Source: Pirellulales bacterium (GTDB taxonomy: Bacteria > Planctomycetota > Planctomycetia > Pirellulales > PALSA-1355). From it: a stretch of 64,000 bases of DNA. The position numbers and the translations under genes were made by a program. The notes beneath the pieces were generated by a model that saw nothing but the letters and a program-made list of their open reading frames with translations, was not told the DNA's origin and searched no databases. Positions within the stretch are counted from its first letter, which is position 1. Each line of letters opens with the position of its first letter. Of the stretch, positions 29,477-45,063 are shown piece after piece. The stretch spans positions 1-64,000 of the forward strand of contig JBFWOR010000012.1 of the NCBI GenBank assembly GCA_050250435.1, read 5' to 3'.

Positions 29477-30286
29477 CTACGGCTGCCGTGGAGGCTCGTC
29501 GTCGTGACCCGCGGCCGCGGCGTCGGTGGCGTCGCGATGAAACTCCCACAAGATGCTCTGCCCGCTCGTGTCCCCGAAGAATCGGACCAGCGTCCGCTTC
29601 TGCAAATGATTCAAGAGGTGAACGGTTTCCTGGAGGCGCGTTTTGCGGGCCAGTTCTTCCTGGCAGGGGAGCGGATTGTCGATGCGTGATTGCCAGCCGG
29701 CTTCCTCGAAGGCGGCCAGAACGGACTCCTGGTCCAGCGACGCGACGTTGTAGCGTTTCACGAGCATCGAGCCCACGCGCAGCTCGCGCCGATTTCGATC
29801 CCAGCGCGGCGTGCGCGCCAGCGAGTAAGCGGGCCGCTCGCGCAGCTCTTGGGCCGGCGCGGCTGGTTGCGCAGGAGCATCTTCGGCTTCGACTCCGCCG
29901 CGCAGATCATAGGCTAGTTCCACGCCGGCCGCTGTCAGCACGAAACACGAGCGGCGGCCAAAGTGTGGCCGGCCGGAATCGAGAAAGTCGCGCGTGCCTT
30001 CCCGCATCCGCGGAATTTCCAACGCGTGCTCGACCAGCTCGCGCGCCAGCAACCAACGCAGTTCGCGGTTCGTGAGCTTCAGGCGGCGCAGCGTCTCGAT
30101 TTCGACGGCGAAATCCCAATCGCTGGTGTCGAGATCGCGTGCGTATTCATGCGCTTCCAGCAGGGCTGCCAAGGCGGCTTGAACGTGCGCGGACAGGAGG
30201 CTCTTGGCGGACTCGCTGGAGTGCAGGTCGCCGTCGGCTCGGGCGGCGCGGCGCGATTCTACGGCCGACATTCTCAAGGCTTCCAT
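29477..30286 (-). CDS. Hypothetical protein, paralog A of a divergently arranged pair.
   Basis: 269 aa. It shares with 30623-31423 the blocks LTNxxLRWLxAxxxVEH, FxxxxRPxFG/RRTP, VLxAFEExGW and RIDxPLP. Confidence 0.6.
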   Translation of the reverse strand: MEALRMSAVESRRAARADGDLHSSESAKSLLSAHVQAALAALLEAHEYARDLDTSDWDFAVEIETLRRLKLTNRELRWLLARELVEHALEIPRMREGTRDFLDSGRPHFGRRSCFVLTAAGVELAYDLRGGVEAEDAPAQPAAPAQELRERPAYSLARTPRWDRNRRELRVGSMLVKRYNVASLDQESVLAAFEEAGWQSRIDNPLPCQEELARKTRLQETVHLLNHLQKRTLVRFFGDTSGQSILWEFHRDATDAAAAGHDDEPPRQP

Positions 30287-30418: not shown

Positions 30419-30622
30419 CTACTACCCTAGAGGTATGCTTGTCCTAAGCGTTCATAGCATACCGCTTTGACGGTCATTGTCAACAATTCCGGAGATGCCG
30501 GCCATGACGCCGGCAAATGTCGCGGAAAAGTAAGATTCGTTTGGCAAAACTCTCGACACGCGGCAGCGCTCGACTATGATCTTCATAAGCCTCCCCCCAA
30601 CGAGTCCCGCCTCCAATCGCAC

Positions 30623-31423
30623 ATGTTGCCCGTGCTGGCCACCGACTTGATGTCGCGAAGCGAAGTCGCGCGCGGTCAATCAATTCCGCGCCTCCCCTCC
30701 GAACTGCGCTCGCATCTGCAGCCTGCGCTGAGTCTGTTGTTGCAGGCGTGGGACTACGCCATCGAGTTGGAGCAGGACGTGTGGAACATGGCGGTCGAGC
30801 TGGACGTGTTGCGCGCCGCCAAACTGACCAACAGCGACTTGCGTTGGCTGGCGGCGAAAGGTTACGTCGAGCACGGCGTGGAAGCCACCGGCCTCGACGA
30901 CAGCGTGCGGCACTTTCGGCGCACGCCGTTGCCGATGTTCACGGAATTGACGTGCGTGGTGTTGACGCCGATCGGCGCTGCTGCGGCGCGCGAGCTGTGC
31001 GAGGCTGCGGCCGCGGGTGAGAACATAGGCCCCGCGGTTGCGTTGTGCGAAATTGGCGGCCTCCAGGAGGTCCAGCGCCGACCGAACTGGGATCAACAGC
31101 GCCGTCAGCTGCGCGTCGGCGGTCAGATTGTCAAAGAGTTCAAGCTTCCTTCGCCGAATCAAGAGACCGTGCTGATGGCCTTCGAAGAAGAGGGCTGGCC
31201 GCCGCGGATCGACGATCCGCTGCCGCCGGTTGGTCACCTCGATTCGCGGCGCCGCTTGCACGACACCATCAAGGCACTCAATCGCAAACAGAAGCGGCTC
31301 TTGATCCGCTTTCGCGGCGACGGCAGCGGCGAAGGAATTCGCTGGGAGCCCGCCATCGAGCCGGCCGAGAGCCGGCCCGCCACGCTCGCCAGCGACCCGT
31401 ACGGCAACGGCGCAACTGTATAG
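30623..31423 (+). CDS. Hypothetical protein, paralog B, divergently transcribed from paralog A.
   Basis: Start at the internal ATG MLPVLATDL (30623). Homologous to 29477-30286 over the whole length. Confidence 0.6.
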   Translation: MLPVLATDLMSRSEVARGQSIPRLPSELRSHLQPALSLLLQAWDYAIELEQDVWNMAVELDVLRAAKLTNSDLRWLAAKGYVEHGVEATGLDDSVRHFRRTPLPMFTELTCVVLTPIGAAAARELCEAAAAGENIGPAVALCEIGGLQEVQRRPNWDQQRRQLRVGGQIVKEFKLPSPNQETVLMAFEEEGWPPRIDDPLPPVGHLDSRRRLHDTIKALNRKQKRLLIRFRGDGSGEGIRWEPAIEPAESRPATLASDPYGNGATV

Positions 31424-31679: not shown

Positions 31680-32534
31680 ATGGCACACTTCGAGCCTCGC
31701 GGATTCGGATGGATTCCGAGTCTCCCGGACTTCCGCGACTATAGCGCCGGTTCAGCCCCGGCGGACGAACTGTTGGCACAACTGCGCGACGTCGCGCCGG
31801 TGACGGCGCCGCGGCCGCCGACTGTCGACTTGCGCGAGTACTTTCTCCCCGCAGGCGATCAACTCCAGCTGCACGCTTCAGCGGCCTGCGCTTGCGCCAG
31901 TCTGGTGGAATACTTCGAGCGGCGCGCCAACGGCGAAATGCTGCGTCCGGCACGGCTGTTCCTTTATCAGAATGCGCAGCGGCTGGCCGGCGTGCGCGGC
32001 AACGTGGGAATGGACCTGCGCAGCACGCTCAAAGCCATGGTTCGCTGCGGCATTCCGCCCGAACGTTATTGGCCTTACGAGGTCGACAGGCTGGATGTCA
32101 CGCCGGACCCGTTTCTGTATTCCTTTGTCGAACCTTACCGGGGCGTCAGTTATTTGCGGCTGGACGGTCGCCAAACGAGCGGCGGCGAAAACTTGCAGAT
32201 CGTGAAGGCGTTTCTGGCCGCGGGATTTCCCTGCACCTGCGGTTTTCCGGTGCCGGATTCCATCGCGGGCGATCCGGATATTCCCTACCGTCCGACGTTC
32301 GACAGCATTGTCGGCGGACAAGCGGTAGTCGCCGTGGGATACGACGATCGCTGGCTGCGCGGATCGCGCGGCGCATTGCTGGTGCGCAGCTCCTGGGGCA
32401 GCGATTGGGGCGAAAGCGGCTACGGTTGGTTGCCATACGCCTACGTCGAAGAGCGCCTGGCGATCGATTTTTGGACGCTGGTGCATCCGGCGTGGATTGC
32501 ATCGGGCGAATTCGACGCGCCCGATCTCCCCTGA
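31680..32534 (+). CDS. Papain-like (C1 family) cysteine-peptidase homolog, probably non-catalytic.
   Basis: C1 signatures are recognisable, but GGQAVVAVGYDD replaces GGHAV..VGY (His->Gln) and RSSWGSDWGESGYGWLPY replaces NSWG...GY (Asn->Ser). The Cys/Gln region DQLQLHASAACACAS is atypical. Confidence 0.7.
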   Translation: MAHFEPRGFGWIPSLPDFRDYSAGSAPADELLAQLRDVAPVTAPRPPTVDLREYFLPAGDQLQLHASAACACASLVEYFERRANGEMLRPARLFLYQNAQRLAGVRGNVGMDLRSTLKAMVRCGIPPERYWPYEVDRLDVTPDPFLYSFVEPYRGVSYLRLDGRQTSGGENLQIVKAFLAAGFPCTCGFPVPDSIAGDPDIPYRPTFDSIVGGQAVVAVGYDDRWLRGSRGALLVRSSWGSDWGESGYGWLPYAYVEERLAIDFWTLVHPAWIASGEFDAPDLP

Positions 32535-32710: not shown

Positions 32711-34276
32711 ATGGTCAGCCGCACACCGGCCAACGGTCACAATTCTACTAGCCGATCGGCCGCGGCTGGAACGCGCGACTTCTTCCGAGTCTTGTTTCGG
32801 CACAAGCGGAAAATGGTGGCGTTCTTCCTGACGTCGATGACGCTGGTGGTGCTGGGGTTGCTGTTCTTCCCGCGCACGTACAAGTCGGATGCACGCCTGT
32901 TCGTGCGGTTGGGCAAGGAAAGCGTGGGCCTCGATCCGACGGCGGCCTTGCAACAAACGGTGTCGGTGAACGATTCGCGCGAAAGCGAAATCAACTCCGT
33001 CGTCGAATTGTTGCGCAGCCGCGCAGTGCTGGATGATGTTGTGAAGCGCCTGGGCGCCGACGAGATCCTGGGCACGCAGCCCGGCGAGTCGACCTCGTGG
33101 TTGCAGATGGTCAAGGCGCCGGCCGACATCGCGCGCACGTGGCTGTATGGAAATATTGGCGCCGAAGAGCGTGCGGTGGCGCGACTGGAAAAGGCGATCA
33201 CGATTGGCGCGCCGCGCCGCTCGAACGTGGTGCTCGTATCGGCCCAGGCACGCGATCCCCAGCTGGCCCAGCGCATTCTGCAGGCCTTGATCGAGTCGTA
33301 CACCGAACAGCACGTGGACGCGAACCGCACGGAAGGTTCGCACGCGTTCTTCGTCACGCAGTCTGACCTGCTGCAAGAACAATTGCGGCGTGCCAACGAA
33401 GAGGTGCGCGACGCCCGCAATGCAAGCTCGCTGGTATCCATCGACGGCGAACGACAGAACGTACAAAGCCAGGCGACCTCGATCGAGGCGGCGATCCTGG
33501 CCAACCAGCGCGACCTGGCTGCGTCGGACGCCCGTATTGCGGCGCTCAAACGGCAGCTGGAAGAGTTACCGCACGACCTGGTCGCCGAACAAACGGCCGG
33601 CTTGCCGAACCAGGCGGCCGACGCCATGCGGAACGAACTGTACCGCCTGCAAATCGAGGAAAAAGACATCAGCTCGCGCTTTACCAGCCTGCACCCGAGC
33701 GTGATTGCCATTCGCCGGCAGGTGGCCGAGACGCAGAAGATTTTCGATGAGCAGCAGGACAGTCGCAGCCAGACGACGCGGCGTCCCAGCGTGGTGCATC
33801 AGCACGTGCAGACGGAGCTGTCGACGGCCACGGCCCTGGCCGCCTCGCAGCGGGCTGCGGCCGCCTCGCTCGAGCAGCAGTTCGACGCGGTGCGCTCGCG
33901 CATGCGTTCGCTCAACGACAACGAATTCCGCATTGCCGAGCTGTCGCGCAAGGCCGAGCTTTTGGAAACGACCTATCGCACGTACGTCCGCAACCGCGAA
34001 CAGGCCCGTATCGATCAGGAGCTGGCCAGCGGTCGCATATCGAACATCAACGTCGTGCAGCCGGCGACGATCGTGGCCAAGCCCTCCAGCCCGCGCGTCA
34101 TGCTGACGCTGGCGATGGGTTTGTTCGCTTCGACGTTCGGCGCGGTGCTGTTGGCCTTCGTGGCAGAGCACTTCGATCGCTCGCTCAAGACGCAGGAGCA
34201 GATCGAGCACGAGCTGGGCATTCCCGTCTTGTTCTCCGTTCCCCGTAGCCGTGGACACGAGCTACTCCCGCATTAA
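32711..34276 (+). CDS. Polysaccharide co-polymerase (Wzz/GumC/exopolysaccharide chain-length determinant family), without a fused kinase domain.
   Basis: N-terminal TM. A Wzz-like periplasmic coiled-coil region (RIAALKRQLEELPHDL...). C-terminal TM GLFASTFGAVLLAFVAEHFD. 521 aa. Confidence 0.8.
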   Translation: MVSRTPANGHNSTSRSAAAGTRDFFRVLFRHKRKMVAFFLTSMTLVVLGLLFFPRTYKSDARLFVRLGKESVGLDPTAALQQTVSVNDSRESEINSVVELLRSRAVLDDVVKRLGADEILGTQPGESTSWLQMVKAPADIARTWLYGNIGAEERAVARLEKAITIGAPRRSNVVLVSAQARDPQLAQRILQALIESYTEQHVDANRTEGSHAFFVTQSDLLQEQLRRANEEVRDARNASSLVSIDGERQNVQSQATSIEAAILANQRDLAASDARIAALKRQLEELPHDLVAEQTAGLPNQAADAMRNELYRLQIEEKDISSRFTSLHPSVIAIRRQVAETQKIFDEQQDSRSQTTRRPSVVHQHVQTELSTATALAASQRAAAASLEQQFDAVRSRMRSLNDNEFRIAELSRKAELLETTYRTYVRNREQARIDQELASGRISNINVVQPATIVAKPSSPRVMLTLAMGLFASTFGAVLLAFVAEHFDRSLKTQEQIEHELGIPVLFSVPRSRGHELLPH

Positions 34277-34309
34277 TCCTCGACGACTCGCCCCCAAGGA
34301 TCGTTTGGC

Positions 34310-34990
34310 ATGATCACGACAACGCAGGATGCAGCCGGCGTCTCCGTCAGCACCGGCCGACGGGACGCGGGTGTTGCCGAAGACTATTACTCGCTATTCC
34401 ACTGGTTGCGATCGGTCGGCGGACCGTCAGAGAGTGCGCCGATGTCGGTCGGCATCACCAGTTGCGCGCCTCGCGCGGGCGTGAGCACGGTGGCCGCCAA
34501 TCTGGCGATCGCGGCCGCGCAGGTCAGCGATCAGCCCGTGTTGCTGTTGGACCTGGGCAGCCCGCGACAAGCGATGACGACGCGCCTGTCGGCAGCCGGC
34601 GACGGCTTCCGCGTGGTTTCTGACCCGGCACAAATCAGTGCTTCGATTCGGCCTTCGCGGTTCGAGAACCTGTCGGTGCTGGACGCCAGCACGGCGGGCA
34701 GCCTGCGCGGCTGGAACCTCGACTGCAACAAGGCCACGGAATTGCTCCGCGCCGTGGAAAACGATTTTGGTTTCATCGTGGTCGATTTGCCGCCGGTGGA
34801 TTCCAGCCAGTGTTTCGTCACCGCCGGCGCCTTGCACGGCGTGCTGCTGGTAATGGAAGCCGAGCGGACGCGTTCCGATATCGCGGTGCGTGCCAAGCAA
34901 CGGTTGGCAGATTCGCGCGCGAACATTCTGGGCATCATCCTCAACAATCACCCGCAACACCTTCCGCAATGGCTCGAGACGAGGCTCTAG
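34310..34990 (+). CDS. BY-kinase/CpsD-like P-loop ATPase-domain protein with degenerate Walker A and A'.
   Basis: GITSCAPRAGVSTVAANLA has Val where GxGKS/T has Lys. VLLLDLGSPRQ replaces the DxD A' motif. Walker B FGFIVVDLPPV is conserved. There is no C-terminal Tyr cluster. Confidence 0.6.
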   Translation: MITTTQDAAGVSVSTGRRDAGVAEDYYSLFHWLRSVGGPSESAPMSVGITSCAPRAGVSTVAANLAIAAAQVSDQPVLLLDLGSPRQAMTTRLSAAGDGFRVVSDPAQISASIRPSRFENLSVLDASTAGSLRGWNLDCNKATELLRAVENDFGFIVVDLPPVDSSQCFVTAGALHGVLLVMEAERTRSDIAVRAKQRLADSRANILGIILNNHPQHLPQWLETRL

Positions 34991-35103
34991 TTTACAAGAC
35001 CGCAGGGAGCACCCTGGCCGCGTGGCAGGCAAGCCCGCGATACACCGCTTGAGACACCTACCCCCCAACCGATTTTCCCACCCGCGACTCGACAGGACGA
35101 CCG

Positions 35104-36180
35104 ATGATTCGCATTTGGAATATATTCAAGGGGCGACTGCCGTGGGCGGGCAGCGGCGCGCCTCATGACCAGTTGCACTCGACCGAGCGGATGCGCGCGA
35201 TCCTGGATCGCGAGCGGATGCGAGCCGATCGCGGCAACGCCAGCTTTGCGCTGTTGACCTTCACGATCCATCGTTCCGCCGAAGCCGGTGACCTGGCAAC
35301 GCTGGCCGGCATTCTCAGTGACCGGATTCGCGCTACCGATGATGCGGGCCTGTTGGGCGCGCGTCGCGTGGGCGTGGTACTACCCGAAACGCCCGCGGAA
35401 GGCGCCTGGAAGCTCTCGCAAGACGTGTGCGACCTGCTGCCGCAGCGCATGCGCCGGCCCGATCGAGAAGTCTACGTATATCCTTCGCTCGACGATGCCG
35501 CCGACCCGACGGCCGAAGTCGAAGAAGATGAGACGCCGCAGGGCCGCCCCGCGCGTTCCATGCACGTGTTGTTCGCACAGCCGTTGCCGGCCTGGAAGCG
35601 AGCCATCGACGTGATCGGCGCGTTTACGGCACTGGTGCTGCTGTCGCCGTTGCTGTTGATCGTGGCCGTGGCAATCAAGCTGACTTCGCCCGGGCCGGTG
35701 ATTTTTCGCCAGGGTCGCGATACGATCGCAGGCCGGCGTTTCACGATGTACAAGTTTCGCACGATGGTTCCTGACGCCGAGCGGGCGAAGGCAGCCCTGC
35801 GACAATTCAGCGAGCAGGATGGTCCGGCGTTCAAGATGACGAACGATCCGCGGATCACGCGGCTCGGCAAGTTCCTGCGCGCGACCAGCATCGACGAGCT
35901 GCCGCAGTTGTTCAACGTGTTGCTGGGAGACATGTCGCTGGTCGGCCCCAGGCCCCTGCCATGCGACGAATCAGGCGATTGTGAGGTCTGGCAGAGACGA
36001 CGGCTGGATGTGACCCCCGGCATCACTTGCATTTGGCAGGTCCACGGCCGGTCGACCGTCTCCTTCTCCGAATGGATACGGATGGATCTCCGCTACGTAG
36101 AGTCGCGATCGCTGGCCAACGACCTATGGTTGTTGGTGCAGACGATACCGGCGGTCGCCTTGCGTCGCGGTGCGCGCTGA
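35104..36180 (+). CDS. Polyprenyl-phosphate sugar phosphotransferase (bacterial sugar transferase, WbaP/EpsB-like) with an N-terminal degenerate GGDEF-like domain.
   Basis: C-terminal KFRTM...DELPQLFNVLLGDMSLVGPRP motifs. Residues 20-150 align to the GGDEF domain of the DGC at 44260-45063. The RATD I-site is aligned, but GGDEF is replaced (ARRVGVV) and the first metal-binding Asp is lost. Confidence 0.8.
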   Translation: MIRIWNIFKGRLPWAGSGAPHDQLHSTERMRAILDRERMRADRGNASFALLTFTIHRSAEAGDLATLAGILSDRIRATDDAGLLGARRVGVVLPETPAEGAWKLSQDVCDLLPQRMRRPDREVYVYPSLDDAADPTAEVEEDETPQGRPARSMHVLFAQPLPAWKRAIDVIGAFTALVLLSPLLLIVAVAIKLTSPGPVIFRQGRDTIAGRRFTMYKFRTMVPDAERAKAALRQFSEQDGPAFKMTNDPRITRLGKFLRATSIDELPQLFNVLLGDMSLVGPRPLPCDESGDCEVWQRRRLDVTPGITCIWQVHGRSTVSFSEWIRMDLRYVESRSLANDLWLLVQTIPAVALRRGAR

Positions 36181-37207
36181 ATTTTCCACCGTTTCTCGGT
36201 GCCTGATGAATGTTGTCGCCCCATCTACTGAGGGTACTAAGGGGGTATTGCCCCCACCGAGCCGCGCGCGGCAAGCGGCCGTTTGGACCGCCGAACGCCT
36301 GGCCGCCGGACTGGGACAATTGTGCGGGCAGCGCTGGAAAGAAGGGTTTGGCATTCTGTGCTACCACCGCGTTGCCGAGGTCGTGCCCGGCGTGGAGCCG
36401 CCCACCTGGAACGTGACGCCCGGCCAGCTTCGCGCGCAGCTCAGCGGCCTGTTGGCGTGCGGCTTCGAGCCGTGGCCGCTGGCGAAGTTGATCCGACATC
36501 GGCATCTGGGTCGAGCCATCCCGGCCAATGCCTTTGTCGTGACGTTCGACGACGGCTACGAGAACAACTACACCGCCGCGCTGCCGGTGCTCAAAGAATT
36601 GCGCGTGCCGGCGACCATCTTTCTGGCCACCGCGTATCTCGACAGCCACGAACCATTCCCGTTCGACGATTGGTCGGCCACGGGCACGTCGCGCGTGCCT
36701 GCGCGGAGTTGGCATCCGCTGTCGACCGCGCAATGCCACGAGCTCCTGGCGAGCGGGATCATTGAGCTGGCCGCGCACACGCATCGGCACGAGCGCTTTG
36801 TCGGCCGCTGCGACGACTTTGCCCGCGACCTTGACGAATGCCTGGAGACGCTGGCCACGAGATTTGGCATCAGGCAGCCGGCGTTTGCGTTTCCCTACGG
36901 AGCGTCGAGCCCGGAATTGAACGCGGCCGCTCGACAAGCCGGAGTCCGCTGCATCCTGTCGACCAAGCTCGAGCGCGTGCAGCCCGAACAAGACGAGTTC
37001 CAGTGGGGGCGGTTCACGGTCGTGGCCAGCGACAACGCCGCGGTGCTGGCCGCGAAGCTATCCGGTTGGTACACCACCGTGGCCACGGCGGGCAAGCGTG
37101 TCATGCGGCGCCTGTCCGCGGCGAAGTCGGCGGCCGCCGCCGATGCACCCGCCGGCAACACGCATGCTGTCCAGCACGATCCATTGGCCGCGAGCCGCGC
37201 GCATTAA
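36170..37207 (+). CDS. Polysaccharide deacetylase (NodB-homology, CE4) family protein.
   Basis: VTFDDGYENNY and HTHRH motifs. The start is uncertain (36170 GTG/ATG or 36206 MNVVAP). Confidence 0.75.
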   Translation: MRAEFSTVSRCLMNVVAPSTEGTKGVLPPPSRARQAAVWTAERLAAGLGQLCGQRWKEGFGILCYHRVAEVVPGVEPPTWNVTPGQLRAQLSGLLACGFEPWPLAKLIRHRHLGRAIPANAFVVTFDDGYENNYTAALPVLKELRVPATIFLATAYLDSHEPFPFDDWSATGTSRVPARSWHPLSTAQCHELLASGIIELAAHTHRHERFVGRCDDFARDLDECLETLATRFGIRQPAFAFPYGASSPELNAAARQAGVRCILSTKLERVQPEQDEFQWGRFTVVASDNAAVLAAKLSGWYTTVATAGKRVMRRLSAAKSAAAADAPAGNTHAVQHDPLAASRAH

Positions 37208-37213
37208 GGTTCC

Positions 37214-38575
37214 ATGAAAGTCGATCTCAAGGAATACTACCCGCCCGAAGATCAGCAGCGCCCGGCGCCGCCGAGCGTCGCTGCGCGCGTGCTGCGTCTG
37301 CGGCAGAAGTTTCCCGGGGCGTCGACCGGATTGTTGTCCATCTTCGATCAGGCGATCGTCAGCGGCACGGGCTTTGCCACGGCGGCCATCATCGGCCGCA
37401 TGACGGCTCCTGAGCAACTCGGTTTGTACTACCTCACGCTCACGATCGTGCTGATCGTGGTCGGCGTGCAGGATCAGATCGTGGCGGCGCCCTATCTGGT
37501 GTATGCCAAGCGACATCACGGCGAGGAGCATGCGCAGTATGCCGGCAGCTCCTGGTTTCACCACTTGCTGCTGACCGTGGCGAGCATGGTGGTGTTGTTG
37601 CTGACGATCGGCATTCTTTCGGTCAGCGGCTCGACGGCGATCCTGCCGGGGCTGTGGGCGTTAGTCGGCGCCGGTCCGCTGTTGCTGGTGCGCGAAGACA
37701 TTCGCCGTTTTGCCTTTGCCGATTTGCACCTCCGGTCGGCCATTGCCATTGATGCCGTCGTGGCCGTGTTGCAACTGGGCGGGCTGTTCTTGCTGGGCTA
37801 CTACGGTCACCTGACATTGTTCAACATTTTCGCGGTCATGGGCGGGGCCTGTGCACTGGCTGCCTTAGGGTGGCTGATCGTCGATCCGCCGCGCGTGCGC
37901 TTTTCGCGAGTCCGCATTCGCGCCGATTGGTCGCACAACTGGGCCTTTGCCAAATGGGCGCTGCGCGGCCACCTGCTGGGCAGCACCACGCCCTACGTCA
38001 TGATCTGGATTGTCAACGGGGCAATTGGCCCGGTGGCCGCGGGCGTGCTCGGCGCGTGTACTACCCTGGTTGGAGTCACGAAAGTGATTCAGGCCGGGGT
38101 GACTAACGTGCTTACAACTCAATCGTCTCACGCGTATGTCACCGGCGGCTGGAAAGAATTGCGCCGAGTGATGATTCGCGCGTCGCTGTTTCTGGGGCTG
38201 TCGGTCGGCAGCCTGTGTTTGTTGTTCCTGGTCACCGGCGACGCATTGGCCGTGCTGGTGTATGGCGAGTTCTACCAAGGCTGCGGACCGATCCTGGTCA
38301 CACTGTCGCTGGCCGCGCTGGTGAGCAGCTTGAGCATCGTGATTGGCAACGGGCTGTGGGCCATCGATCAGCCGCGGGCCAGTTTCGCCGCCGACGTGTG
38401 CAGCACCGTGATTACGCTGGCCGCCGCGGCACTGCTCGTTCCCTCGATGGGCGCGCTGGGCGCCGCGCTGGCCACGTTGGCCGGCAGCGCCGTGGCCACG
38501 CTGGTGCGTCTGGTCATCCTGGTTCGCGCGTATGAACCGACGCGCTTCGACAAAGCATCGCTTCCGACTCCATAA
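37214..38575 (+). CDS. Wzx-type oligosaccharide flippase (polysaccharide biosynthesis protein, MOP superfamily).
   Basis: 453 aa, ~12 predicted TM helices, typical Wzx topology and length. Located inside the EPS locus. Confidence 0.75.
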   Translation: MKVDLKEYYPPEDQQRPAPPSVAARVLRLRQKFPGASTGLLSIFDQAIVSGTGFATAAIIGRMTAPEQLGLYYLTLTIVLIVVGVQDQIVAAPYLVYAKRHHGEEHAQYAGSSWFHHLLLTVASMVVLLLTIGILSVSGSTAILPGLWALVGAGPLLLVREDIRRFAFADLHLRSAIAIDAVVAVLQLGGLFLLGYYGHLTLFNIFAVMGGACALAALGWLIVDPPRVRFSRVRIRADWSHNWAFAKWALRGHLLGSTTPYVMIWIVNGAIGPVAAGVLGACTTLVGVTKVIQAGVTNVLTTQSSHAYVTGGWKELRRVMIRASLFLGLSVGSLCLLFLVTGDALAVLVYGEFYQGCGPILVTLSLAALVSSLSIVIGNGLWAIDQPRASFAADVCSTVITLAAAALLVPSMGALGAALATLAGSAVATLVRLVILVRAYEPTRFDKASLPTP

Positions 38576-38592
38576 GCAAGGGCCGCAAGGCC

Positions 38593-39672
38593 TTGGATTT
38601 CATGAATATCCGCAGTGTTAAGTTCGACCGTCTGACGAGCGAGGAGCTTGCGACCTGGAGTGCGATCCAGCTCGGCAACGAGGTCTATTCCAGCCCGTAC
38701 TTCCGTCCGGAGTTCACGCAGGCCGTGGCTGCGGTGCGCGACGACGTGGAAGTGGCCGTGCTGGAAGAGTCGGGCCGGGCGGTAGGCTTTTTGCCCTTTC
38801 AGCGCACACCGTGGAACGGCGGGCGGCCCATCGGCGGACGCTTGTCCGACTATCACGCATTGATCGCCGGGCCGGACGTGTTGTGCGAGCCGGTAGAGAT
38901 CGTGCGCGCGTGCCGGCTGTCGTCGTGGCACTTCGACCATCTGGTCGCCGCGCATCCCTCGTTCACGCGCTACGCCTGGTCGTTCGCGGAATCGCCCTAC
39001 ATTGACGTGTCCGACGGCTTCGAGGCTTACATGCGCCAGCGGGGCAACACCCGCGGCGTGATGTCGGAATATGGCCAGAAGAAACGCAAGCTGGAGCGCG
39101 AGATTGGGCCCGTGCGTTACGAACGGCACGTGGCCGATCGCGCCGTGTTGGCCACGCTCATCGAATGGAAGTCCGAGCAGTATCGCCGTACCAAGGTCGA
39201 CAACATCTTCGCTTTCCCGTGGGTCATCAACCTGCTGGAACAGATCATGCAGTTTGACAGTCCGCACATCGCCCCGATCATGTCGGTGACGTATTGCGGC
39301 GATCAGATTGCGGCGATCAACTTCGGCATGCGCGCCGGCACGGTGTTGCATCCGTGGTTCCCGGCGTACAACGTGGATTTCGGCAAGTATTCGCCGGGCA
39401 CGCTGCATTGGGTGGCCACGCTGCAAGACGCGGAAGACATGGGCGTCAAGCGCATCGACCTCGTCTCCGGCGGTGAAACTTACAAACAACGGTTTTCCAG
39501 CGGCACGATTCGCGTGGCCCAGGGCGCGATCGATCCGCGGCCGTCCCTGGCGGCCGCCCGCCGCGCCTGGCGGCGGACGCGCGAGATCGTGCGCTCTTCG
39601 CCCGTGTATTCCCGCGTGCGCGGGCCGGTGCGCATGCTGCACAATGTCAAAGCCTGGCTGGAGCTGCGATGA
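38593..39672 (+). CDS. CelD/BcsL-like GNAT-fold acetyltransferase (Acetyltransf_6 / FemAB-like).
   Basis: ~360 aa soluble protein. A C-terminal block (FPWVINLLEQ...GTLHWVATLQDAEDMGVKRIDLVSGGETYKQRF) resembles CelD-family acyl-CoA N-acyltransferases. Confidence 0.6.
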   Translation: MDFMNIRSVKFDRLTSEELATWSAIQLGNEVYSSPYFRPEFTQAVAAVRDDVEVAVLEESGRAVGFLPFQRTPWNGGRPIGGRLSDYHALIAGPDVLCEPVEIVRACRLSSWHFDHLVAAHPSFTRYAWSFAESPYIDVSDGFEAYMRQRGNTRGVMSEYGQKKRKLEREIGPVRYERHVADRAVLATLIEWKSEQYRRTKVDNIFAFPWVINLLEQIMQFDSPHIAPIMSVTYCGDQIAAINFGMRAGTVLHPWFPAYNVDFGKYSPGTLHWVATLQDAEDMGVKRIDLVSGGETYKQRFSSGTIRVAQGAIDPRPSLAAARRAWRRTREIVRSSPVYSRVRGPVRMLHNVKAWLELR

Positions 39673-41006
39673 CGACTTCCGCGCCTTGGGCGCTTGAACA
39701 CAGCTATGACTCGACCGCGACGCCGTCTCGCTTCTGGCTGTGGACGCTGCTGGTGGGTTTGGCGTTCTTCATCGCCGATCAGGATCCGCGCATGCTGGAA
39801 GCGGAATCCTGGGATGCCGAAGTGTACTCGGCCGATGAGCACAGCGAGCGCATTGCCGGCGGCAATCTTTTGCGGCAGGCCATGTTCTTGTCCTTGGGGC
39901 TGGCGGGCGTCTATGGCCTGGCAAGCAGCCAGGGTCGCAAGCTCGATTGGCGCGATCCCTTGGTCTTGACCTGCGTCGGCTTTCTGGCCTGGGCCGCGCT
40001 GAGCGTTGCCTGGTCGAACGATCCCGGGCTATCGTTGCGGCGCGTGCTGCGGCTGGCCTGCGTGTACGCGGCCGCGTTGGGGCTGGTGCGCCATTTTTCG
40101 CCGCGAGATTTCTTGCGCATGGCTTTTGCCATTGCGCTCGGCTGGTTCGTGTTCTCGATCGGCCTGGAGCTGGCGCTCGGCCGTTTTCAACCGTGGCAAG
40201 AGAACTATCGCTTTTGCGGGATGATGCACCCGAACCTGCAGGTGCTGCAGTGCGGGGTCCTGGTGCTGGCCGCGGTGGCAATTCTGGCGAGTGAAACCCG
40301 GCCCGATTGGTTCGTTCGCGGCACGCTGCTGGTGGCCGGCGCTTCGTTCCTGCTCACCCGCTCGCGCACCGCGTTGGCGGCCATGGTGGTGGCGTTTGTC
40401 GTGGCCTGGCTGGCCAAGCCGGGTGGCCGCAAACTTCCCTGGGTGTTTGCGGCGGCGCTGGTCGCTTCGGCCGTGGGGCTGTTTGCCGGTCTGTTTGGCA
40501 GCGGAGTCGACCAAGGTGTGGCGAACGTCGCGCTATTGGGCCGCAGCGAAGACGTCGGCTCGTTGACCGGGCGCTTGCCGTTGTGGACCGAGCTGGTGGG
40601 GCATGGGCTGGTGCGCCCGTTGACCGGCTACGGCTACGGCGCGTTCTGGGGTCCCGAGCGGGCGGAAATCGTGGCCGACGCATTGTCCGTTCGCGGCTGG
40701 CAAATTCCCCACGCACACTCGTCGTTCATCGATGCGTTTCTGAGCCTGGGACTCATTGGTGTGACGGCGCTGGCGCTCACGATGATCGTGGCGCTCGTGC
40801 GAGCCGTCAAACGATATCACGCGGCGCCGATTGCGGAATCCTTGTTCCTGCTCGGGCTGATCACGTTCGGTGCGTGCGACGCGCTGGCCGAATCGTCGGT
40901 CGTCGAGCCGTCGTTCTTTTGTTTCCTGATCCTGTGCAGCGCGCTGCAACTGACGTTTCCGGCGCAGCAGCACTCGGCAGACGAATCCCAATTCAACTGG
41001 AATTAA
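39669..41006 (+). CDS. O-antigen ligase/Wzy-like polymerase family membrane protein.
   Basis: Many TM helices and a large periplasmic loop with Wzy_C-like features. 4-nt overlap with the upstream gene. Confidence 0.7.
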   Translation: MTTSAPWALEHSYDSTATPSRFWLWTLLVGLAFFIADQDPRMLEAESWDAEVYSADEHSERIAGGNLLRQAMFLSLGLAGVYGLASSQGRKLDWRDPLVLTCVGFLAWAALSVAWSNDPGLSLRRVLRLACVYAAALGLVRHFSPRDFLRMAFAIALGWFVFSIGLELALGRFQPWQENYRFCGMMHPNLQVLQCGVLVLAAVAILASETRPDWFVRGTLLVAGASFLLTRSRTALAAMVVAFVVAWLAKPGGRKLPWVFAAALVASAVGLFAGLFGSGVDQGVANVALLGRSEDVGSLTGRLPLWTELVGHGLVRPLTGYGYGAFWGPERAEIVADALSVRGWQIPHAHSSFIDAFLSLGLIGVTALALTMIVALVRAVKRYHAAPIAESLFLLGLITFGACDALAESSVVEPSFFCFLILCSALQLTFPAQQHSADESQFNWN

Positions 41007-41034
41007 TCGGCCCCGAAACCCCGGTCCCGAATTC

Positions 41035-42093
41035 ATGCCTCGCACTGTAAGCCAACGCCTGTCGGTCAGCGTGATTATCCCCACGTATAACCGCGCCACG
41101 TTAGTGAGCGAGGCGATCGACAGCGCGCTGGGCCAAACCCGCGTGCCGGACGAGATCATCGTCGTCGACGACGGTTCGACCGACGGCACGGCCGACGTGC
41201 TGCGACGGTATGGCGCGCCGGTGCGGGTCGTTTCGCAAGCGAATCGCGGCCGTTCCGCCGCGCGCAACACGGGCCTGCAGGAAGCGCGCGGCGATCTGAT
41301 TCTGTTTCTCGATTCAGACGACCTGCTGGTCCCCCAGTGCGTGGAACACTGTGCCCGCATTCTGGAACGCGAGCCCGAGACTGCGGTGGTGTACACCGAC
41401 GCCCACGTGATCGATCGCGAAGGGCGCATCGTCGGCCGCTACAGCGAGGCGCTGCGCGGAGCGCGTCCGTCGGGAATGATCTTGGGCGAGCTGGCCCGGC
41501 GCTGCTTCCTCACGGTGTCGTCGATGGTGCGCCGCGCGAGCTTGCCGGAAGTGGCGTTCGAAGTGGGCATGGAGCATTGCGAAGACTACGACCTGTGGCG
41601 CCGGCTTTCGGCCCGCTGCCAGTTTCACTACCTGGCGGAGCCGCTGCTGTGTTACCGATTTCACGAGGGCATGACGAACGCCGTGCAGCACCAGAACATC
41701 CTCACCAGTGAGATTGAAGTGCAGCGGCGCTTCATGGGCATGGACGAATTCGCCCGGCTGTCGCGGCGCGAGCGGGCCCGCGTGTACTGTACGCACGGGA
41801 TCAAGAACGCGCTGGTCGATCGGAGCGACGTGGCGCGGCAGTATTTTCGCAAGGCGCTTGTGACTTCGCCGACGTATCCGGGCGGCCCGGCCCTGACGCT
41901 CTTAAGCCTGGGCGGCTCGCGGTTCCTGAAATATGCCATCCTTAAGCGGCGCAAGCTGGCCGGCAACCAATTGGGCTCGCAGGCCGGTCCGCTGGCCGTG
42001 GTGCGCCAGCCGCGCAAGGACGGCGAGGAGTTTGCGGCGGCGCCGGCCAGCGCCGTTGCTTCCGCCGGCGCGCTGGTGGGCGAAAGCTCGTAG
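41035..42093 (+). CDS. Family 2 glycosyltransferase.
   Basis: VSVIIPTYNRATLVSEAIDSALGQT...VVDDGSTDGT and a DSDD motif. Confidence 0.85.
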   Translation: MPRTVSQRLSVSVIIPTYNRATLVSEAIDSALGQTRVPDEIIVVDDGSTDGTADVLRRYGAPVRVVSQANRGRSAARNTGLQEARGDLILFLDSDDLLVPQCVEHCARILEREPETAVVYTDAHVIDREGRIVGRYSEALRGARPSGMILGELARRCFLTVSSMVRRASLPEVAFEVGMEHCEDYDLWRRLSARCQFHYLAEPLLCYRFHEGMTNAVQHQNILTSEIEVQRRFMGMDEFARLSRRERARVYCTHGIKNALVDRSDVARQYFRKALVTSPTYPGGPALTLLSLGGSRFLKYAILKRRKLAGNQLGSQAGPLAVVRQPRKDGEEFAAAPASAVASAGALVGESS

Positions 42094-42104
42094 CAGGAAA
42101 CACC

Positions 42105-43373
42105 ATGTCGATCGACACTGAATTCTCGCCCGCCGCACACGCCGCCACGACCGTGGGTTCGACCACGGCCGGCGCGAACTTCGCGCGCCCAGCTGCCGAC
42201 GCCGCGCGCCATCTGGTCCGCGTGTTGCACATCATCAATGGCGAACACTACGCCGGGGCCGAGCGTGCCCAGGACCTGATGGCCTTGCGGCTGCCGGAGT
42301 TTGGCTACGAAGTGACGTTCGTGTGCCTGAAGCACGGCAAGTTTGCCGAGGCGCGCCGCTCGCAGGCCGCGCCGCTGGTGACGCTGCCAATGCGCGGCCG
42401 TTTTGACTTGCGTCCGGCACGCGCGGTGGCCCGCATGGTCCGCGACGAAGACTTTGCCTTGATTCATACGCACACGCCGCGCTCGTCGCTAGTGGGCGGC
42501 GTGGCATCGGCCTGGGCACGCGTGCCGCTGGTCCACCATATTCAAAGTCCCGCGTCGCACGACAGCACGTCGCGCTGGCGCAACTGGGTCAACGCCGCGG
42601 TGGAGCGGGCGAGCGCCGGCCGGGCCGCGGCCATCCTGCCCGTCTCCAAGAGCCTGGAAGACCACTCCCGCACGTACGGCCCTCGCGGCCGCTCGATGGC
42701 GATCGTTCCCAACGGCGTGCCCGCGCGGCCGTCGCTGGCGGCGCGAGAAACCCCGAGTGAGATCTGGACGATTGGCACCGTGGCGCTGTTTCGACCGCGC
42801 AAGGGGCTAGACGTGCTGCTGTCCGCGTTTGCCGGCCTGCACGCTGCAGGGCTGCCGGTTCGGCTGCGCGCCGTGGGCCGCTTCGAAACGCCCGAGTACG
42901 AAACGCAAATCATGAATCAGGTGCGCGAGCTGGGGATTGCCGACGCCATCGAATGGCGCGGCTTCCGGCACGACGTGCAGGCGGAACTCGACACCATGGA
43001 CTTATTCGTGCTGCCCAGCCTGTTCGGCGAGGGCCTGCCGTTCGTGGTGCTGGAGGCCATGTCGGCGGGCGTGCCGGTCATCAGCACCAACGTGGAAGGC
43101 ATTCCCGAGGCCGTGCGCGATGGCCGCGACGGGCTGATCGTCGAGCCCAGCGATGTGCCCGGTCTGGCCGGCGCGATGGGTCGGTTCGTCACCGGGCAGG
43201 TCGATTGGCAGGCGCTGCGACGCTCGGCCTACGAGCGCCAATCCAGCCTTTATACCGACGTGAGCATGTCGGCCGGCGTGGCTGCCGCGTATGACGCGGT
43301 GCTGGACGGCCGCCGAGCCAACGGATCGGCCGCGCGCGGCGTCTCCCCATCACCCTTGAACACGGCCTCATGA
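42105..43373 (+). CDS. Family 4 (GT-B, RfaG-like) glycosyltransferase.
   Basis: C-terminal motif FVLPSLFGEGLPFVVLEAMSAGVPVISTNVEGIPE. Confidence 0.85.
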   Translation: MSIDTEFSPAAHAATTVGSTTAGANFARPAADAARHLVRVLHIINGEHYAGAERAQDLMALRLPEFGYEVTFVCLKHGKFAEARRSQAAPLVTLPMRGRFDLRPARAVARMVRDEDFALIHTHTPRSSLVGGVASAWARVPLVHHIQSPASHDSTSRWRNWVNAAVERASAGRAAAILPVSKSLEDHSRTYGPRGRSMAIVPNGVPARPSLAARETPSEIWTIGTVALFRPRKGLDVLLSAFAGLHAAGLPVRLRAVGRFETPEYETQIMNQVRELGIADAIEWRGFRHDVQAELDTMDLFVLPSLFGEGLPFVVLEAMSAGVPVISTNVEGIPEAVRDGRDGLIVEPSDVPGLAGAMGRFVTGQVDWQALRRSAYERQSSLYTDVSMSAGVAAAYDAVLDGRRANGSAARGVSPSPLNTAS

Positions 43374-44245
43374 AACATCAGGTTCCGGCTATGAACAGGC
43401 GCGTCAAGTTGTTTGGCTGCCAGATCGACCGCGTGCGGATGCCGCAGGCGGTGGCGCGCGTGTATCGCTGGCTCGCGGCGCGCAGCGGCGCCTGCCGCTA
43501 CGTGGTCACGCCCAACGTGGACCACGTGGTAATGCTCGAACATCACGAAGGGCTGCGCCGGGCCTACGACGGCGCAGACCTGGTGCTGGCCGACGGTATG
43601 CCGGTGGTGCTGGCCAGCCGCTTGTTGGGTCGGGCCTTGCCCGAGCGTGTCACCGGCGCGGATCTGGTCGTCGGCCTGCTCGAAGCGGCGCACGAGCGCG
43701 GCGGAATCTCGGTGTTTCTGCTGGGCGCGGGGCCGGGCGTGGCCGAGCAGGCGCAGGCCAAAGTCGAGGCCCGCTGGCCGGCGGTCAAAGTCGTGGGCAC
43801 TTATTGCCCGCCGCTTGGATTCGAGCACGACGGCAATGAGAATAAACAGATACTGGAGCGCATTCGCGCGGCCCAGCCGGACGTCCTGGTGGTCGGTCTC
43901 GGCGCGCCCAAGCAGGAGTTGTGGGTCCACGCTCACCGGCAACAAATTGCCGCGGGCGTAGCCCTGTGCGTGGGTGCGACGATCGATTTCCTGGCCGGCC
44001 ACAAGCGCCGCGCCCCGCTGTGGATGCAAAAGTCAGGGCTCGAATGGCTGCATCGCGTGGGCACTGAACCGCGACGACTGGCCGGGCGTTACGTCAAAGA
44101 CGCGTGGCGCTTTCCGCGGCTGGTGTGGCGCGAGTGGGCCCGCAGTCGCCCGACGGCACAGCCCGGGGCACGGCATGCCGCGCCGAGTCACGCGGCGCCG
44201 CTGCACGTGGCCGAGGAGCCCGTGAGCGAAGTGGTGGGACATTAG
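43370..44245 (+). CDS. WecB/TagA/CpsF family glycosyltransferase.
   Basis: Family-typical N-terminal region (VTPNVDHVVMLEHH...ADGMPVV) and C-terminal region (GVALCVGATIDFLAGHKRRAP). 4-nt overlap with the GT4 gene. Confidence 0.8.
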   Translation: MKHQVPAMNRRVKLFGCQIDRVRMPQAVARVYRWLAARSGACRYVVTPNVDHVVMLEHHEGLRRAYDGADLVLADGMPVVLASRLLGRALPERVTGADLVVGLLEAAHERGGISVFLLGAGPGVAEQAQAKVEARWPAVKVVGTYCPPLGFEHDGNENKQILERIRAAQPDVLVVGLGAPKQELWVHAHRQQIAAGVALCVGATIDFLAGHKRRAPLWMQKSGLEWLHRVGTEPRRLAGRYVKDAWRFPRLVWREWARSRPTAQPGARHAAPSHAAPLHVAEEPVSEVVGH

Positions 44246-44259
44246 CAAGGCAAAACGAC

Positions 44260-45063
<804 letters not shown>

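What the first reader, a model, noticed from the sequence alone, without database searches (positions are those of the whole stretch)
35104..36180. Priming sugar transferase fused to a degenerate GGDEF-like domain that keeps the RxxD I-site
The C-terminal half is a standard polyprenyl-phosphate hexose-1-phosphate transferase. Residues ~20-150 align with the GGDEF domain of the diguanylate cyclase encoded 8 kb downstream (44260-45063). The I-site RPTD of the cyclase aligns to RATD in the transferase. The GGDEF catalytic motif of the cyclase (RYGGDEF) aligns to ARRVGVV in the transferase, and the first metal-binding Asp of the cyclase (DLDGF) is lost.

This is the signature of a catalytically dead GGDEF domain that still binds c-di-GMP, as in PelD or PopA. 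Placed on the enzyme that initiates repeat-unit synthesis, it would make exopolysaccharide initiation directly c-di-GMP-gated. An N-terminal GGDEF-like receptor is an unusual arrangement for WbaP/EpsB-type priming transferases.
Basis: partly seen in the sequence, partly recalled or inferred. Interest (0 to 1): 0.68.

Follow-up and report, generated by a model that had tools for sequence, protein, structure and literature searches.

The report
Sugar-priming enzyme with dead-cyclase c-di-GMP sensor
The enzyme that starts exopolysaccharide synthesis in this planctomycete carries a shrunken, catalytically dead diguanylate-cyclase domain. That domain keeps only the c-di-GMP "inhibition-site" motif, so the second messenger probably switches sugar-chain initiation on or off directly. 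This kind of control has not been described for this class of pathway.

Summary

The A-site is gone. GGDEF aligns to GARRV, which is variable. The metal-binding Asp is Thr54. Ten residues of the phosphate-binding loop are deleted, and the C-terminal third of the domain is missing.

The I-site is invariant. R76 and D79 are kept in 157 of 157 domain copies from clusters at ≤50% identity. R74 and R43, the latter at the position of the secondary I-site arginine, are kept in 153 of 157.

The gene lies in a Wzx/Wzy-type EPS operon that ends with an active PAS-GGDEF cyclase. A GGDEF gene lies within 10 kb in 9 of 18 informative related loci.

c-di-GMP binding is inferred, not shown, and the third I-site arginine (PleD R390; PelD R402 by analogy) is Asp here. 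I found no published description. I rate it a new variant of a known kind.

The parts
35104..36180 (+). Whole gene, 358 aa: GGDEF-like domain, acidic linker, then a small monotopic phosphoglycosyl transferase
   Evidence: ORF. It is 100% identical to the NCBI Pirellulales MAG 'sugar transferase'. The full-length AF2 model has pLDDT 90.3 and pTM 0.84.
35173..35487 (+). Minimal degenerate GGDEF-fold domain (residues ~24-128), with topology alpha-beta-alpha-beta-beta-alpha-beta
35323..35340 (+). R74-I-R76-A-T78-D79: the retained I-site RxxD (R76..D79), extended by a family-specific R74
   Evidence: Translation checked. R76 and D79 are present in 157/157 domain copies, R74 in 153/157 and T78 in 126/157. 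The motif aligns with RPTD of the window's cyclase and with the RxxD of 3ign, the best PDB hit.
35209..35232 (+). R36-E-R-M-R-A-D-R43: conserved charged helix. R43 lies at the position of the secondary I-site arginine (WspR R198 / PleD R313)
   Evidence: Translation checked. E37 is present in 157/157 copies, R43 in 153/157 and R40 in 152/157. The equivalence of R43 to WspR R198 / PleD R313 is my own residue count on published sequences. It is consistent with the alignments.
35356..35370 (+). G85-A-R-R-V89: the remnant of the GG(D/E)EF active-site hairpin, non-catalytic and variable
   Evidence: hhalign aligns these residues with GGDEF. The columns are variable across the family.
35263..35271 (+). 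T54-I-H56, in place of the metal-binding DxD. A 10-residue deletion of the 'GFKxiNDxxG' phosphate-binding loop follows
   Evidence: The hhalign and hmmsearch alignments show the gap and T54 opposite the first Asp. The column is variable across the family.
35488..35553 (+). Acidic, disordered linker of variable length (residues 129-150)
   Evidence: pLDDT 53-66 in the full-length model. Length and sequence vary among homologs.
35590..35685 (+). Re-entrant membrane helix of the PGT (residues 163-194), with K165, R166, D169 and the S181-P182 break
   Evidence: K165, R166, D169 and P182 are invariant in 87 sequences. The model has a helix at 163-194.
35596..36156 (+). Bac_transf catalytic domain (residues 165-351) with the Asp264-Glu265 dyad in SIDELPQL
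   Evidence: PF02397 E 3.8e-64. Foldseek: PglC 8e37 at 37% identity and E 1e-14; WbaP 8t53 at 34% identity. D264 and E265 are at least 90% conserved. Translation checked.
44260..45063 (+). PAS-GGDEF diguanylate cyclase, the last gene of the same operon. It has intact GGDEF, DLD and RPTD motifs
   Evidence: PF00990 E 2.4e-42 plus PAS_8. NCBIfam hits. NCBI annotates it as a 267-aa sensor diguanylate cyclase. A same-strand GGDEF gene closes the cluster in 6 other distinct loci.
32711..45063 (+). Wzx/Wzy-type EPS operon. Order: PCP, BY-kinase-like ATPase, PGT, deacetylase, flippase-like protein, acetyltransferase, Wzy, GT2, GT4, WecG, cyclase
   Evidence: Pfam and NCBIfam hits. All genes are on the + strand with short gaps or overlaps. 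The order is syntenic in homologous loci.
34310..34990 (+). BY-kinase-family ATPase directly upstream, with a degenerate Walker A. It is fused to the GGDEF-like PGT in one relative
   Evidence: TIGR01007 E 2e-19. Walker A reads GAG[VA][ST][ST] in 22/22 loci. In the fusion protein P0247 (646 aa), residues 62-190 give only a weak BcsQ/ParA-type match (PF06564, E 0.0044, below threshold).

Best explanation
The protein is a small, PglC-type monotopic phosphoglycosyl transferase. Its cytoplasmic N-terminus carries a minimal GGDEF-derived domain. That domain has lost everything needed to make c-di-GMP but keeps the allosteric product-binding I-site.

The most likely mechanism runs as follows.
1. c-di-GMP is made by the PAS-GGDEF cyclase at the end of the operon, or by other cyclases.
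2. It binds at R74/R76/D79, probably as an intercalated dimer.
3. R43 of a second domain may help, as in the trans cross-links seen in WspR and PleD.
4. Binding changes how the domain docks on the catalytic domain, or how the enzyme oligomerises. This gates transfer of sugar-1-phosphate to polyprenyl phosphate.
5. The first committed step of this Wzx/Wzy-type exopolysaccharide pathway then depends on c-di-GMP.

Shown here: the fold, the loss of the catalytic site, the invariance of the I-site, an intact PGT domain, the operon context, and the linkage to a cyclase gene.
Inferred: ligand binding, the sign of the effect (activation seems likelier, by analogy with PelD, BcsA and Alg44), and the cross-linking idea.
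For: - GGDEF homology and fold.
- The A-site is not under selection. GARRV and T54 fall in variable columns, the loop is deleted, and the C-terminal sub-domain is absent.
- The I-site is under strong selection. R76 and D79 are present in 157/157 copies; R74 and R43 in 153/157.
- From general knowledge, RxxD is not needed for the GGDEF fold, since many active cyclases lack it. Its invariance therefore points to ligand binding.
- Every copy whose motif I could find in the tandem (2x, 3x) relatives keeps RxRxxDxxG. One copy of P0151 and all three copies of P0211 did not match the pattern.
- The N-terminal domain has no TM segment before the re-entrant helix, so it is cytoplasmic.
- A full-length pTM of 0.84 despite a disordered linker suggests a defined docking of the two domains.
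- A GGDEF gene closes the cluster on the same strand in 7 distinct loci. It lies within 5 kb upstream in 2 more, giving 9 of 18 informative loci. No other GGDEF ORFs occur in those flanks.
- Several cyclase orthologs and PGT homologs report the same longest-contig length, which suggests shared contigs.
- The PGT catalytic features are intact.
Against: - No binding data exist.
- The third I-site arginine on helix alpha3 (PleD R390) is Asp107 here, by my count of residues from the conserved PxT motif. By analogy it corresponds to PelD R402, which is described as absolutely required in PelD (PMC8461298). I did not align PelD itself.
- Only K103 lies one turn earlier on that helix, and it is K or R in about 65% of copies.
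- Half of the informative loci have no cyclase gene nearby.
- The conserved charged residues could instead form an inter-domain or protein-protein interface.
- I could not inspect model coordinates, so the I-site geometry and its exposure are unverified.
Confidence: 0.55

Rival explanations
1. The GGDEF-derived domain is a relic that now serves only as a docking or dimerisation module. It might contact the PGT catalytic domain, the adjacent BY-kinase-like ATPase/PCP, or the operon's cyclase. The conserved Arg, Asp and Glu residues would then be interface residues, not a nucleotide site.
For: - A pTM of 0.84 implies a fixed inter-domain contact.
- One relative appears to fuse the upstream ATPase-like protein to this domain, though the ATPase match is weak. 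That argues for physical association.
- The PleD R390 equivalent is Asp (plus my residue count).
- Many conserved charges lie outside RxxD, for example the RERxRxDR helix.
Against: - The residues that stay invariant are exactly the canonical I-site pair, in the canonical position five residues before the former GGDEF hairpin.
- Linkage to cyclase genes is far above chance.
- GGDEF protein-protein contacts characterised so far, such as GcbC-LapD, use other surfaces (general knowledge).
Confidence: 0.25
2. The retained site binds a different nucleotide, such as GTP, (p)ppGpp, cGAMP or another cyclic dinucleotide. Initiation would then be coupled to a different signal.
For: - The site is remodelled: R74 is added, the invariant G100-A101-W102 motif sits at the start of alpha3, and Asp replaces the third Arg.
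- PleD structures with ppGpp bound exist in the PDB (9g85/9g86, listed).
Against: - The GTP-binding A-site elements are deleted.
- The linked signalling gene is a canonical GGDEF cyclase with GGDEF and RxxD motifs, not a Hypr-type enzyme or another synthase.
Confidence: 0.1
3. The similarity to GGDEF is chance or generic ferredoxin-like convergence, and the N-terminal region is an unrelated family-specific domain.
For: The single sequence is below all curated thresholds. BLASTP against the neighbouring cyclase gives E 22.
Against: - The profile hits GGDEF domains almost exclusively in the whole PDB.
- The hhalign controls are clean.
- The motif register (RxxD, hairpin, LPxT) is collinear with GGDEF.
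- A three-copy relative passes Pfam's GGDEF whole-protein threshold at 31.4 bits.
Confidence: 0.02

Closest known systems
PelD (Pseudomonas aeruginosa Pel system), a degenerate-GGDEF I-site receptor
   Different: - PelD is a separate 4-TM + GAF + full-length GGDEF protein in a synthase-dependent pathway.
- Here a 105-aa truncated GGDEF core is fused directly to the initiating PGT of a Wzx/Wzy-type pathway.
- PelD needs R402. The presumed equivalent position here is Asp107.
Other I-site receptors with degenerate GGDEF or GGDEF-like domains: PopA (Caulobacter), PssE (Listeria), YdaK (Bacillus), BcsE GIL domain
   Different: None of them is fused to a phosphoglycosyl transferase. All act on synthase-type glycosyltransferases or on proteolysis adaptors. 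Their GGDEF domains are full-length.
Small monotopic PGT PglC (Campylobacter) and large PGT WbaP (Salmonella)
   Same: The C-terminal 195 residues share the fold, the re-entrant helix, the Asp-Glu dyad and 34-37% identity.
   Different: PglC has no N-terminal domain. WbaP has four TM helices and a nucleotide-binding-like DUF domain instead of a GGDEF-like domain.
EpsW-EpsZ (Myxococcus xanthus) and monoPGT-receiver fusions
   Same: The initiating PGT of a Wzx/Wzy pathway is regulated post-translationally by a signalling domain (PMC12802240).
   Different: There the input is phosphorylation of a response-regulator receiver domain acting in trans, or fused in some small PGTs. Here the input module is a c-di-GMP I-site domain.
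Product inhibition by I-site cross-linking in WspR and PleD
   Same: The primary RxxD and the arginine at the end of helix alpha1 (WspR R198 / PleD R313, here R43) are both conserved. Relatives with two or three tandem copies exist.
   Different: In WspR and PleD the cross-link immobilises active cyclase domains. Here it would reposition or oligomerise a transferase. This is untested.

Membership tests
GGDEF domain (PF00990 / diguanylate cyclase) | Palm-type beta-alpha-beta-beta-alpha-beta core preceded by helix alpha1 | tested here: met
GGDEF domain (PF00990 / diguanylate cyclase) | Score above the curated Pfam or NCBIfam threshold | tested here: not met
   PF00990 scores 12.1 bits against a 23.8 cutoff. 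TIGR00254 scores 14.3 bits against 37.4. Only profile-level searches are significant.
GGDEF domain (PF00990 / diguanylate cyclase) | GG(D/E)EF active-site motif and metal-binding Asp, which define cyclase activity | tested here: not met
   GARRV replaces GGDEF, T54 replaces Asp, and 10 residues of the phosphate-binding loop are deleted. These columns are variable across the family.
GGDEF domain (PF00990 / diguanylate cyclase) | Full ~160-aa domain including the C-terminal beta-alpha-beta-beta elements | tested here: not met
   The domain ends at residue ~128 after the fourth strand, and a disordered linker follows. hhalign covers only columns 10-134 of the 180-column template.
Degenerate-GGDEF I-site c-di-GMP receptors (PelD/PopA type) | RxxD located five residues upstream of the former GG(D/E)EF position and conserved in orthologs | tested here: met
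   R76-A-T-D79 aligns with RPTD/RxxD. It is present in 109/109 and 157/157 sequences.
Degenerate-GGDEF I-site c-di-GMP receptors (PelD/PopA type) | Additional arginine on helix alpha3 (PleD R390; PelD R402 taken as its analogue) | tested here: not met
   My count from the conserved PxT motif places PleD R390 opposite D107, which is Asp in 101/157 copies. K103 lies one turn earlier and is K or R in ~65% of copies. R74 is a family-specific extra arginine. PelD was not aligned directly.
Degenerate-GGDEF I-site c-di-GMP receptors (PelD/PopA type) | Demonstrated c-di-GMP binding | not testable with these tools
   This needs DRaCALA, ITC or MST, or co-folding with the ligand.
Monotopic phosphoglycosyl transferase (Bac_transf, PF02397; small PglC-type) | Pfam match above threshold and fold similarity to PglC | tested here: met
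   E 3.8e-64, 216 bits. PglC 8e37 at 37% identity and TM 0.79 normalised to the target.
Monotopic phosphoglycosyl transferase (Bac_transf, PF02397; small PglC-type) | Asp-Glu catalytic dyad, and a re-entrant helix with basic N-cap and Ser-Pro break | tested here: met
   D264-E265 lie in SIDELPQL. K165, R166, D169 and P182 are invariant.
Large PGT (WbaP/WcaJ/EpsZ type) | Four N-terminal TM helices plus a cytosolic DUF (CoA_binding_3-like) domain | tested here: not met
   The TIGR03022, TIGR03023 and NF041877 models match only their C-terminal ~195 positions, and the scores are below cutoff. There is no hydrophobic segment before residue 163.

The most novel reading that the evidence does not exclude
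A widespread, so far unrecognised class of c-di-GMP receptor: an ~105-aa 'I-site-only' mini-GGDEF module fused in one to three copies to the initiating phosphoglycosyl transferase.

In this reading, c-di-GMP dimers cross-link the RxxD of one module to the alpha1 arginine (R43) of another. The cross-link would form in trans in single-copy enzymes and in cis in tandem ones, switching the PGT on. That would be the first direct c-di-GMP control of a Wzx/Wzy-dependent pathway at its committed step.

In these planctomycete clusters it would operate alongside a BY-kinase that has lost its Walker A lysine and tyrosine tail. That pairing hints that c-di-GMP has replaced tyrosine phosphorylation as the pathway's control input.
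Probability: 0.3. Interest if true: 0.8.

Novelty: new variant of a known kind. Interest (0 to 1): 0.66.

Why it matters
Direct, post-translational c-di-GMP control of polysaccharide synthesis is well established for synthase-dependent systems: cellulose BcsA/BcsE, alginate Alg44, Pel PelD and PNAG. For Wzx/Wzy-dependent pathways the post-translational control points are described as poorly understood (PMC12802240). A 2021 review of c-di-GMP control of EPS does not mention them at all (PMC8461298).

An I-site domain fused to the PGT would place the signal at the step that commits the scarce polyprenyl-phosphate carrier.

The family is large: 1184 clusters at 50% identity match at E<=1e-10. Pfam does not detect the domain, so domain-architecture surveys of PGTs and of c-di-GMP effectors are likely to have missed it.

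It also defines the smallest GGDEF-derived unit that appears to be kept only for its I-site. That makes it a useful minimal scaffold for studying, or engineering, c-di-GMP binding.

Tried and rejected
- BLASTP of the N-terminal 179 aa against the neighbouring cyclase gave no similarity (E 22).
- Single-sequence Pfam and NCBIfam searches gave only sub-threshold GGDEF hits.
- An Rfam scan of the whole window for c-di-GMP riboswitches or other RNAs found nothing.
- The afdb50 fold library was unavailable.
- The search for related loci with the broad alignment A1 failed for lack of conserved stretches. It worked with the narrower A3, but that biases the 18 loci towards Planctomycetota.
- O'Toole et al. 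2021 (PNAS, the monoPGT fusion survey) is not held in the library. I could not check whether GGDEF-like fusions are listed there.
- Full-text searches combining GGDEF or c-di-GMP with PGT terms returned no paper describing this fusion.
- Domain-only hits in the representative search looked like possible stand-alone receptors. Most are contig-end fragments or frameshifted PGTs.
- P0128 (1078 aa, 14 stretches) is a spurious repeat protein.
- I rejected the idea that the enzyme is WbaP-type.
- I rejected residual cyclase activity, because the A-site is deleted.
Full report
**1. What is at the coordinates**

The ORF at 35104-36180 (+) exists as described and encodes 358 aa. It is identical to a protein annotated only as "sugar transferase" in a Pirellulales MAG.

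Pfam places Bac_transf (PF02397) on residues 165-351 at E 3.8e-64 and finds nothing credible on residues 1-164. NCBIfam models for large PGTs (WbaP, WcaJ, EpsZ) match only their last ~195 positions and fall below their cutoffs. The enzyme is therefore a small PglC-type monotopic PGT with an extra N-terminal region, not a WbaP-type large PGT.

The full-length AF2 model matches PglC (8e37, 37% identity, E 1e-14) and WbaP (8t53, 34%) with its C-terminal half. The catalytic Asp264-Glu265 dyad in SIDELPQL is conserved. So are the basic cap K165/R166/D169 and Pro182 of the re-entrant helix.

**2. Is the N-terminal region GGDEF-like?**

Direct BLASTP against the cyclase 8 kb downstream shows nothing (E 22). 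Single-sequence HMM hits are faint: TIGR00254 at E 0.025 and PF00990 at E 0.17.

With homologs the relationship becomes clear.
- A profile of 59 N-domains (alignment A1) was searched against all PDB sequences. It returned 17 chains at E<=10. At least 15 are named GGDEF/diguanylate-cyclase proteins, and the two weakest (E ~0.9) are deposited as "ammonium transporter". The best hits are 3ign (E 3e-7), GcbC (9e-6) and WspR (2e-4).
- hhalign of A1 against an alignment of 118 GGDEF domains related to the window's own cyclase gives Prob 85-86%, P 7e-7 in global mode and 5.6e-6 in local mode.
- The PGT domain alignment, a reversed alignment and ten column-shuffled alignments all give Prob <=2.6%.
- AF2 on A1 gives pLDDT 93.8 and pTM 0.86, with topology alpha-beta-alpha-beta-beta-alpha-beta.
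- The top 50 Foldseek hits are all GGDEF domains.

**3. Anatomy relative to a canonical GGDEF**

In the hhalign alignment:
- RATD (R76-D79) lies opposite RPTD of the cyclase.
- G85-ARR-V89 lies opposite GGDEF, so RYGGDEF corresponds to LLGARRV.
- T54 and H56 lie opposite the two Asp residues of DLD.
- Ten residues of the "GFKQINDRWG" phosphate-binding loop are deleted.
- LPET(93-96) matches the usual "LPxT" that follows GGDEF.

The domain ends at about residue 128, so the C-terminal third of a normal ~160-aa GGDEF domain is absent. Residues 129-150 are an acidic linker of low confidence and variable length.

**4. Conservation**

I examined two sets. The first is 109 close homologs at 53-69% identity. 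The second is 157 domain copies from the best 150 representatives of 50%-identity clusters.

| Residue | Copies conserved (of 157) |
|---|---|
| E37, R76, D79 | 157 |
| G82 | 156 |
| R43, R74 | 153 |
| R40, A101 | 152 |
| L93, T96 | 146 |
| P94 | 145 |

The former A-site positions (85-89) and position 54 are variable. This pattern, with the I-site fixed and the A-site free to drift, is what is expected of an I-site receptor. It is the opposite of what is expected of a cyclase.

By my own count on published sequences, R43 sits where WspR R198 and PleD R313 sit. That is the secondary I-site arginine, which binds c-di-GMP in trans.

One caveat concerns the position of PleD R390. By my count from the conserved PxT motif it is Asp107 here. 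I take PelD R402 to be the equivalent residue by analogy, because I did not align PelD. R402 is described as absolutely required for binding in PelD (PMC8461298). K103 lies one helical turn earlier and is K or R in about 65% of copies. R74 is a family-specific extra arginine. The site is therefore remodelled rather than simply retained.

**5. Distribution and architectures**

The A1 profile finds 3975 cluster representatives at E<=1e-3, 1184 at E<=1e-10 and 34 at E<=1e-30.

| Architecture among the best 150 | Count |
|---|---|
| Domain + PGT | 62 |
| Two tandem copies + PGT | 6 |
| Three tandem copies + PGT | 2 |
| Domain + split PGT match | 1 |
| Domain(s) only | 78 |
| No match (spurious repeat protein) | 1 |

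Most of the domain-only entries are contig-end fragments or frameshifted PGTs. Every tandem copy whose motif I could find keeps RxRxxDxxG. One copy of P0151 and all three copies of P0211 did not match the pattern.

A three-copy protein passes Pfam's whole-protein GGDEF threshold at 31.4 bits. One planctomycete protein (P0247, 646 aa) appears to fuse the upstream BY-kinase-like ATPase in front of the domain, on a weak BcsQ/ParA-type match.

All 18 loci from GTDB species representatives are Planctomycetota MAGs. The search pattern was biased towards them. The tandem forms carry Desulfobulbaceae, Deltaproteobacteria or "Proteobacteria" names.

**6. Genomic context**

The gene sits in a same-strand, tightly packed operon:

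| Coordinates | Gene product |
|---|---|
| 32711-34276 | PCP / chain-length determinant |
| 34310-34990 | BY-kinase-like ATPase |
| 35104-36180 | PGT with the GGDEF-like domain |
| 36170-37207 | Polysaccharide deacetylase |
| 37214-38575 | Flippase-like membrane protein |
| 38593-39672 | Acetyltransf_6 |
| 39669-41006 | Wzy_C polymerase |
| 41035-42093 | GT2 |
| 42105-43373 | GT4 |
| 43370-44245 | WecG/TagA |
| 44260-45063 | PAS-GGDEF cyclase, with intact DLD, GGDEF and RPTD motifs |

The same order recurs in relatives. I scanned every fetched locus with a local GGDEF HMM.
- Seven distinct loci, including the window, end with a same-strand GGDEF gene.
- Two more have a GGDEF gene within 5 kb upstream.
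- Nine have none within 10 kb.
- Six are too short to judge.
- No other GGDEF ORFs occur in these flanks.

Several orthologs of the cyclase report the same longest-contig length as PGT homologs, which suggests further linked pairs. No riboswitch or other Rfam family is present in the window.

**7. Mechanism**

The N-domain precedes the only hydrophobic segment, the re-entrant helix at 163-194. It is therefore cytoplasmic, where c-di-GMP is.

The full-length pTM is 0.84 despite the disordered linker. This suggests the mini-GGDEF docks on the catalytic domain in a defined way. I could not inspect the interface.

The best-supported reading is that c-di-GMP binds at R74/R76/D79. R43 of a second module may contribute in trans. 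Binding would alter docking or oligomerisation and so gate transfer of sugar-1-phosphate to polyprenyl phosphate. Activation is likelier than inhibition, by analogy with PelD, BcsA and Alg44 and given the co-transcribed cyclase.

The fold, the loss of catalysis, the I-site selection, the intact PGT and the cyclase linkage are shown. Binding, the sign of the effect and cross-linking are inferred.

**8. Comparison with known systems**

Functionally it resembles the degenerate-GGDEF I-site receptors PelD, PopA, PssE, YdaK and BcsE. It fails several membership features of GGDEF proper: curated thresholds, the A-site, full domain length and the third arginine. It is best described as a GGDEF-derived mini-domain.

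It is a genuine small monoPGT. Regulatory domains on monoPGTs are on record, including receiver domains, and a stand-alone receiver protein activates EpsZ in Myxococcus (PMC12802240).

I found no paper describing a c-di-GMP-receptor-type domain on a PGT. The monoPGT fusion survey by O'Toole et al. 2021 could not be read. JGI's automatic names for two homologs mention "GGDEF domain-containing", so pipelines occasionally flag it.

**9. Verdict**

I rate it a new variant of a known kind: an I-site receptor module in a new, reduced form, placed on a new class of target enzyme. It is of real interest for c-di-GMP and glycoconjugate researchers.

Noticed in passing
window 34310-34990 (+); also the ORF directly upstream of the PGT in L001-L024: The BY-kinase-family ATPase next to the PGT (TIGR01007, E 2e-19, below cutoff) has lost the Walker A lysine. 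It reads GAG[VA][ST][ST] instead of GxGK[ST]. It has no C-terminal tyrosine cluster and ends in a conserved '...LNxxPQHLPxWLxxRL'. The same holds in all 22 loci examined. It looks like a conserved pseudo-kinase, so tyrosine-phosphorylation cycling may not operate in this EPS system.
   Followed up: partly
L027 10001-11941 (protein P0247, 646 aa, planctomycete MAG GCA_964445985.1): In this relative the BY-kinase-like ATPase appears to be fused in front of the GGDEF-like domain and the PGT as one polypeptide. The ATPase assignment rests on a weak BcsQ/ParA-type Pfam match at residues 62-190. A gene fusion like this would argue that the ATPase-like protein and the PGT N-domain interact physically.
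   Followed up: partly
Proteins P0121, P0123, P0125, P0127, P0129, P0151, P0211 (representative search); L026: PGTs with two or three tandem copies of the mini-GGDEF domain occur in MAGs named Desulfobulbaceae, Deltaproteobacteria or Proteobacteria. RxRxxDxxG is kept in every copy I could match by pattern. One such gene (L026) is stand-alone, with no EPS cluster or cyclase nearby.
   Followed up: partly
window 29335-30075, 30467-31423, 31680-32534 (+), just upstream of the PCP gene: Three ORFs of 246, 318 and 284 aa have no or only marginal family hits. The third gives a weak Peptidase_C1 match at E 8e-4. ORFs of similar size lie in the same position in related clusters (L001, L005, L006), and in L006 the counterpart carries a Peptidase_C1 hit. 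They are probably conserved, uncharacterised parts of this EPS locus. Unlike L001, L005 and L006, the window showed no Wza-type Poly_export hit among the upstream ORFs I scanned.
   Followed up: no
window 45083-46126 (+): A 347-aa ORF lies immediately after the cyclase gene and has no Pfam or NCBIfam hit. It may or may not belong to the operon.
   Followed up: no
window 20204-24367 (+) and 47272-53133 (+): Two very large ORFs (1387 and 1953 aa) flank the region. A DUF1552/HXXSHH protein typical of planctomycetes lies at 24437-25774. The large ORFs were not examined.
   Followed up: no
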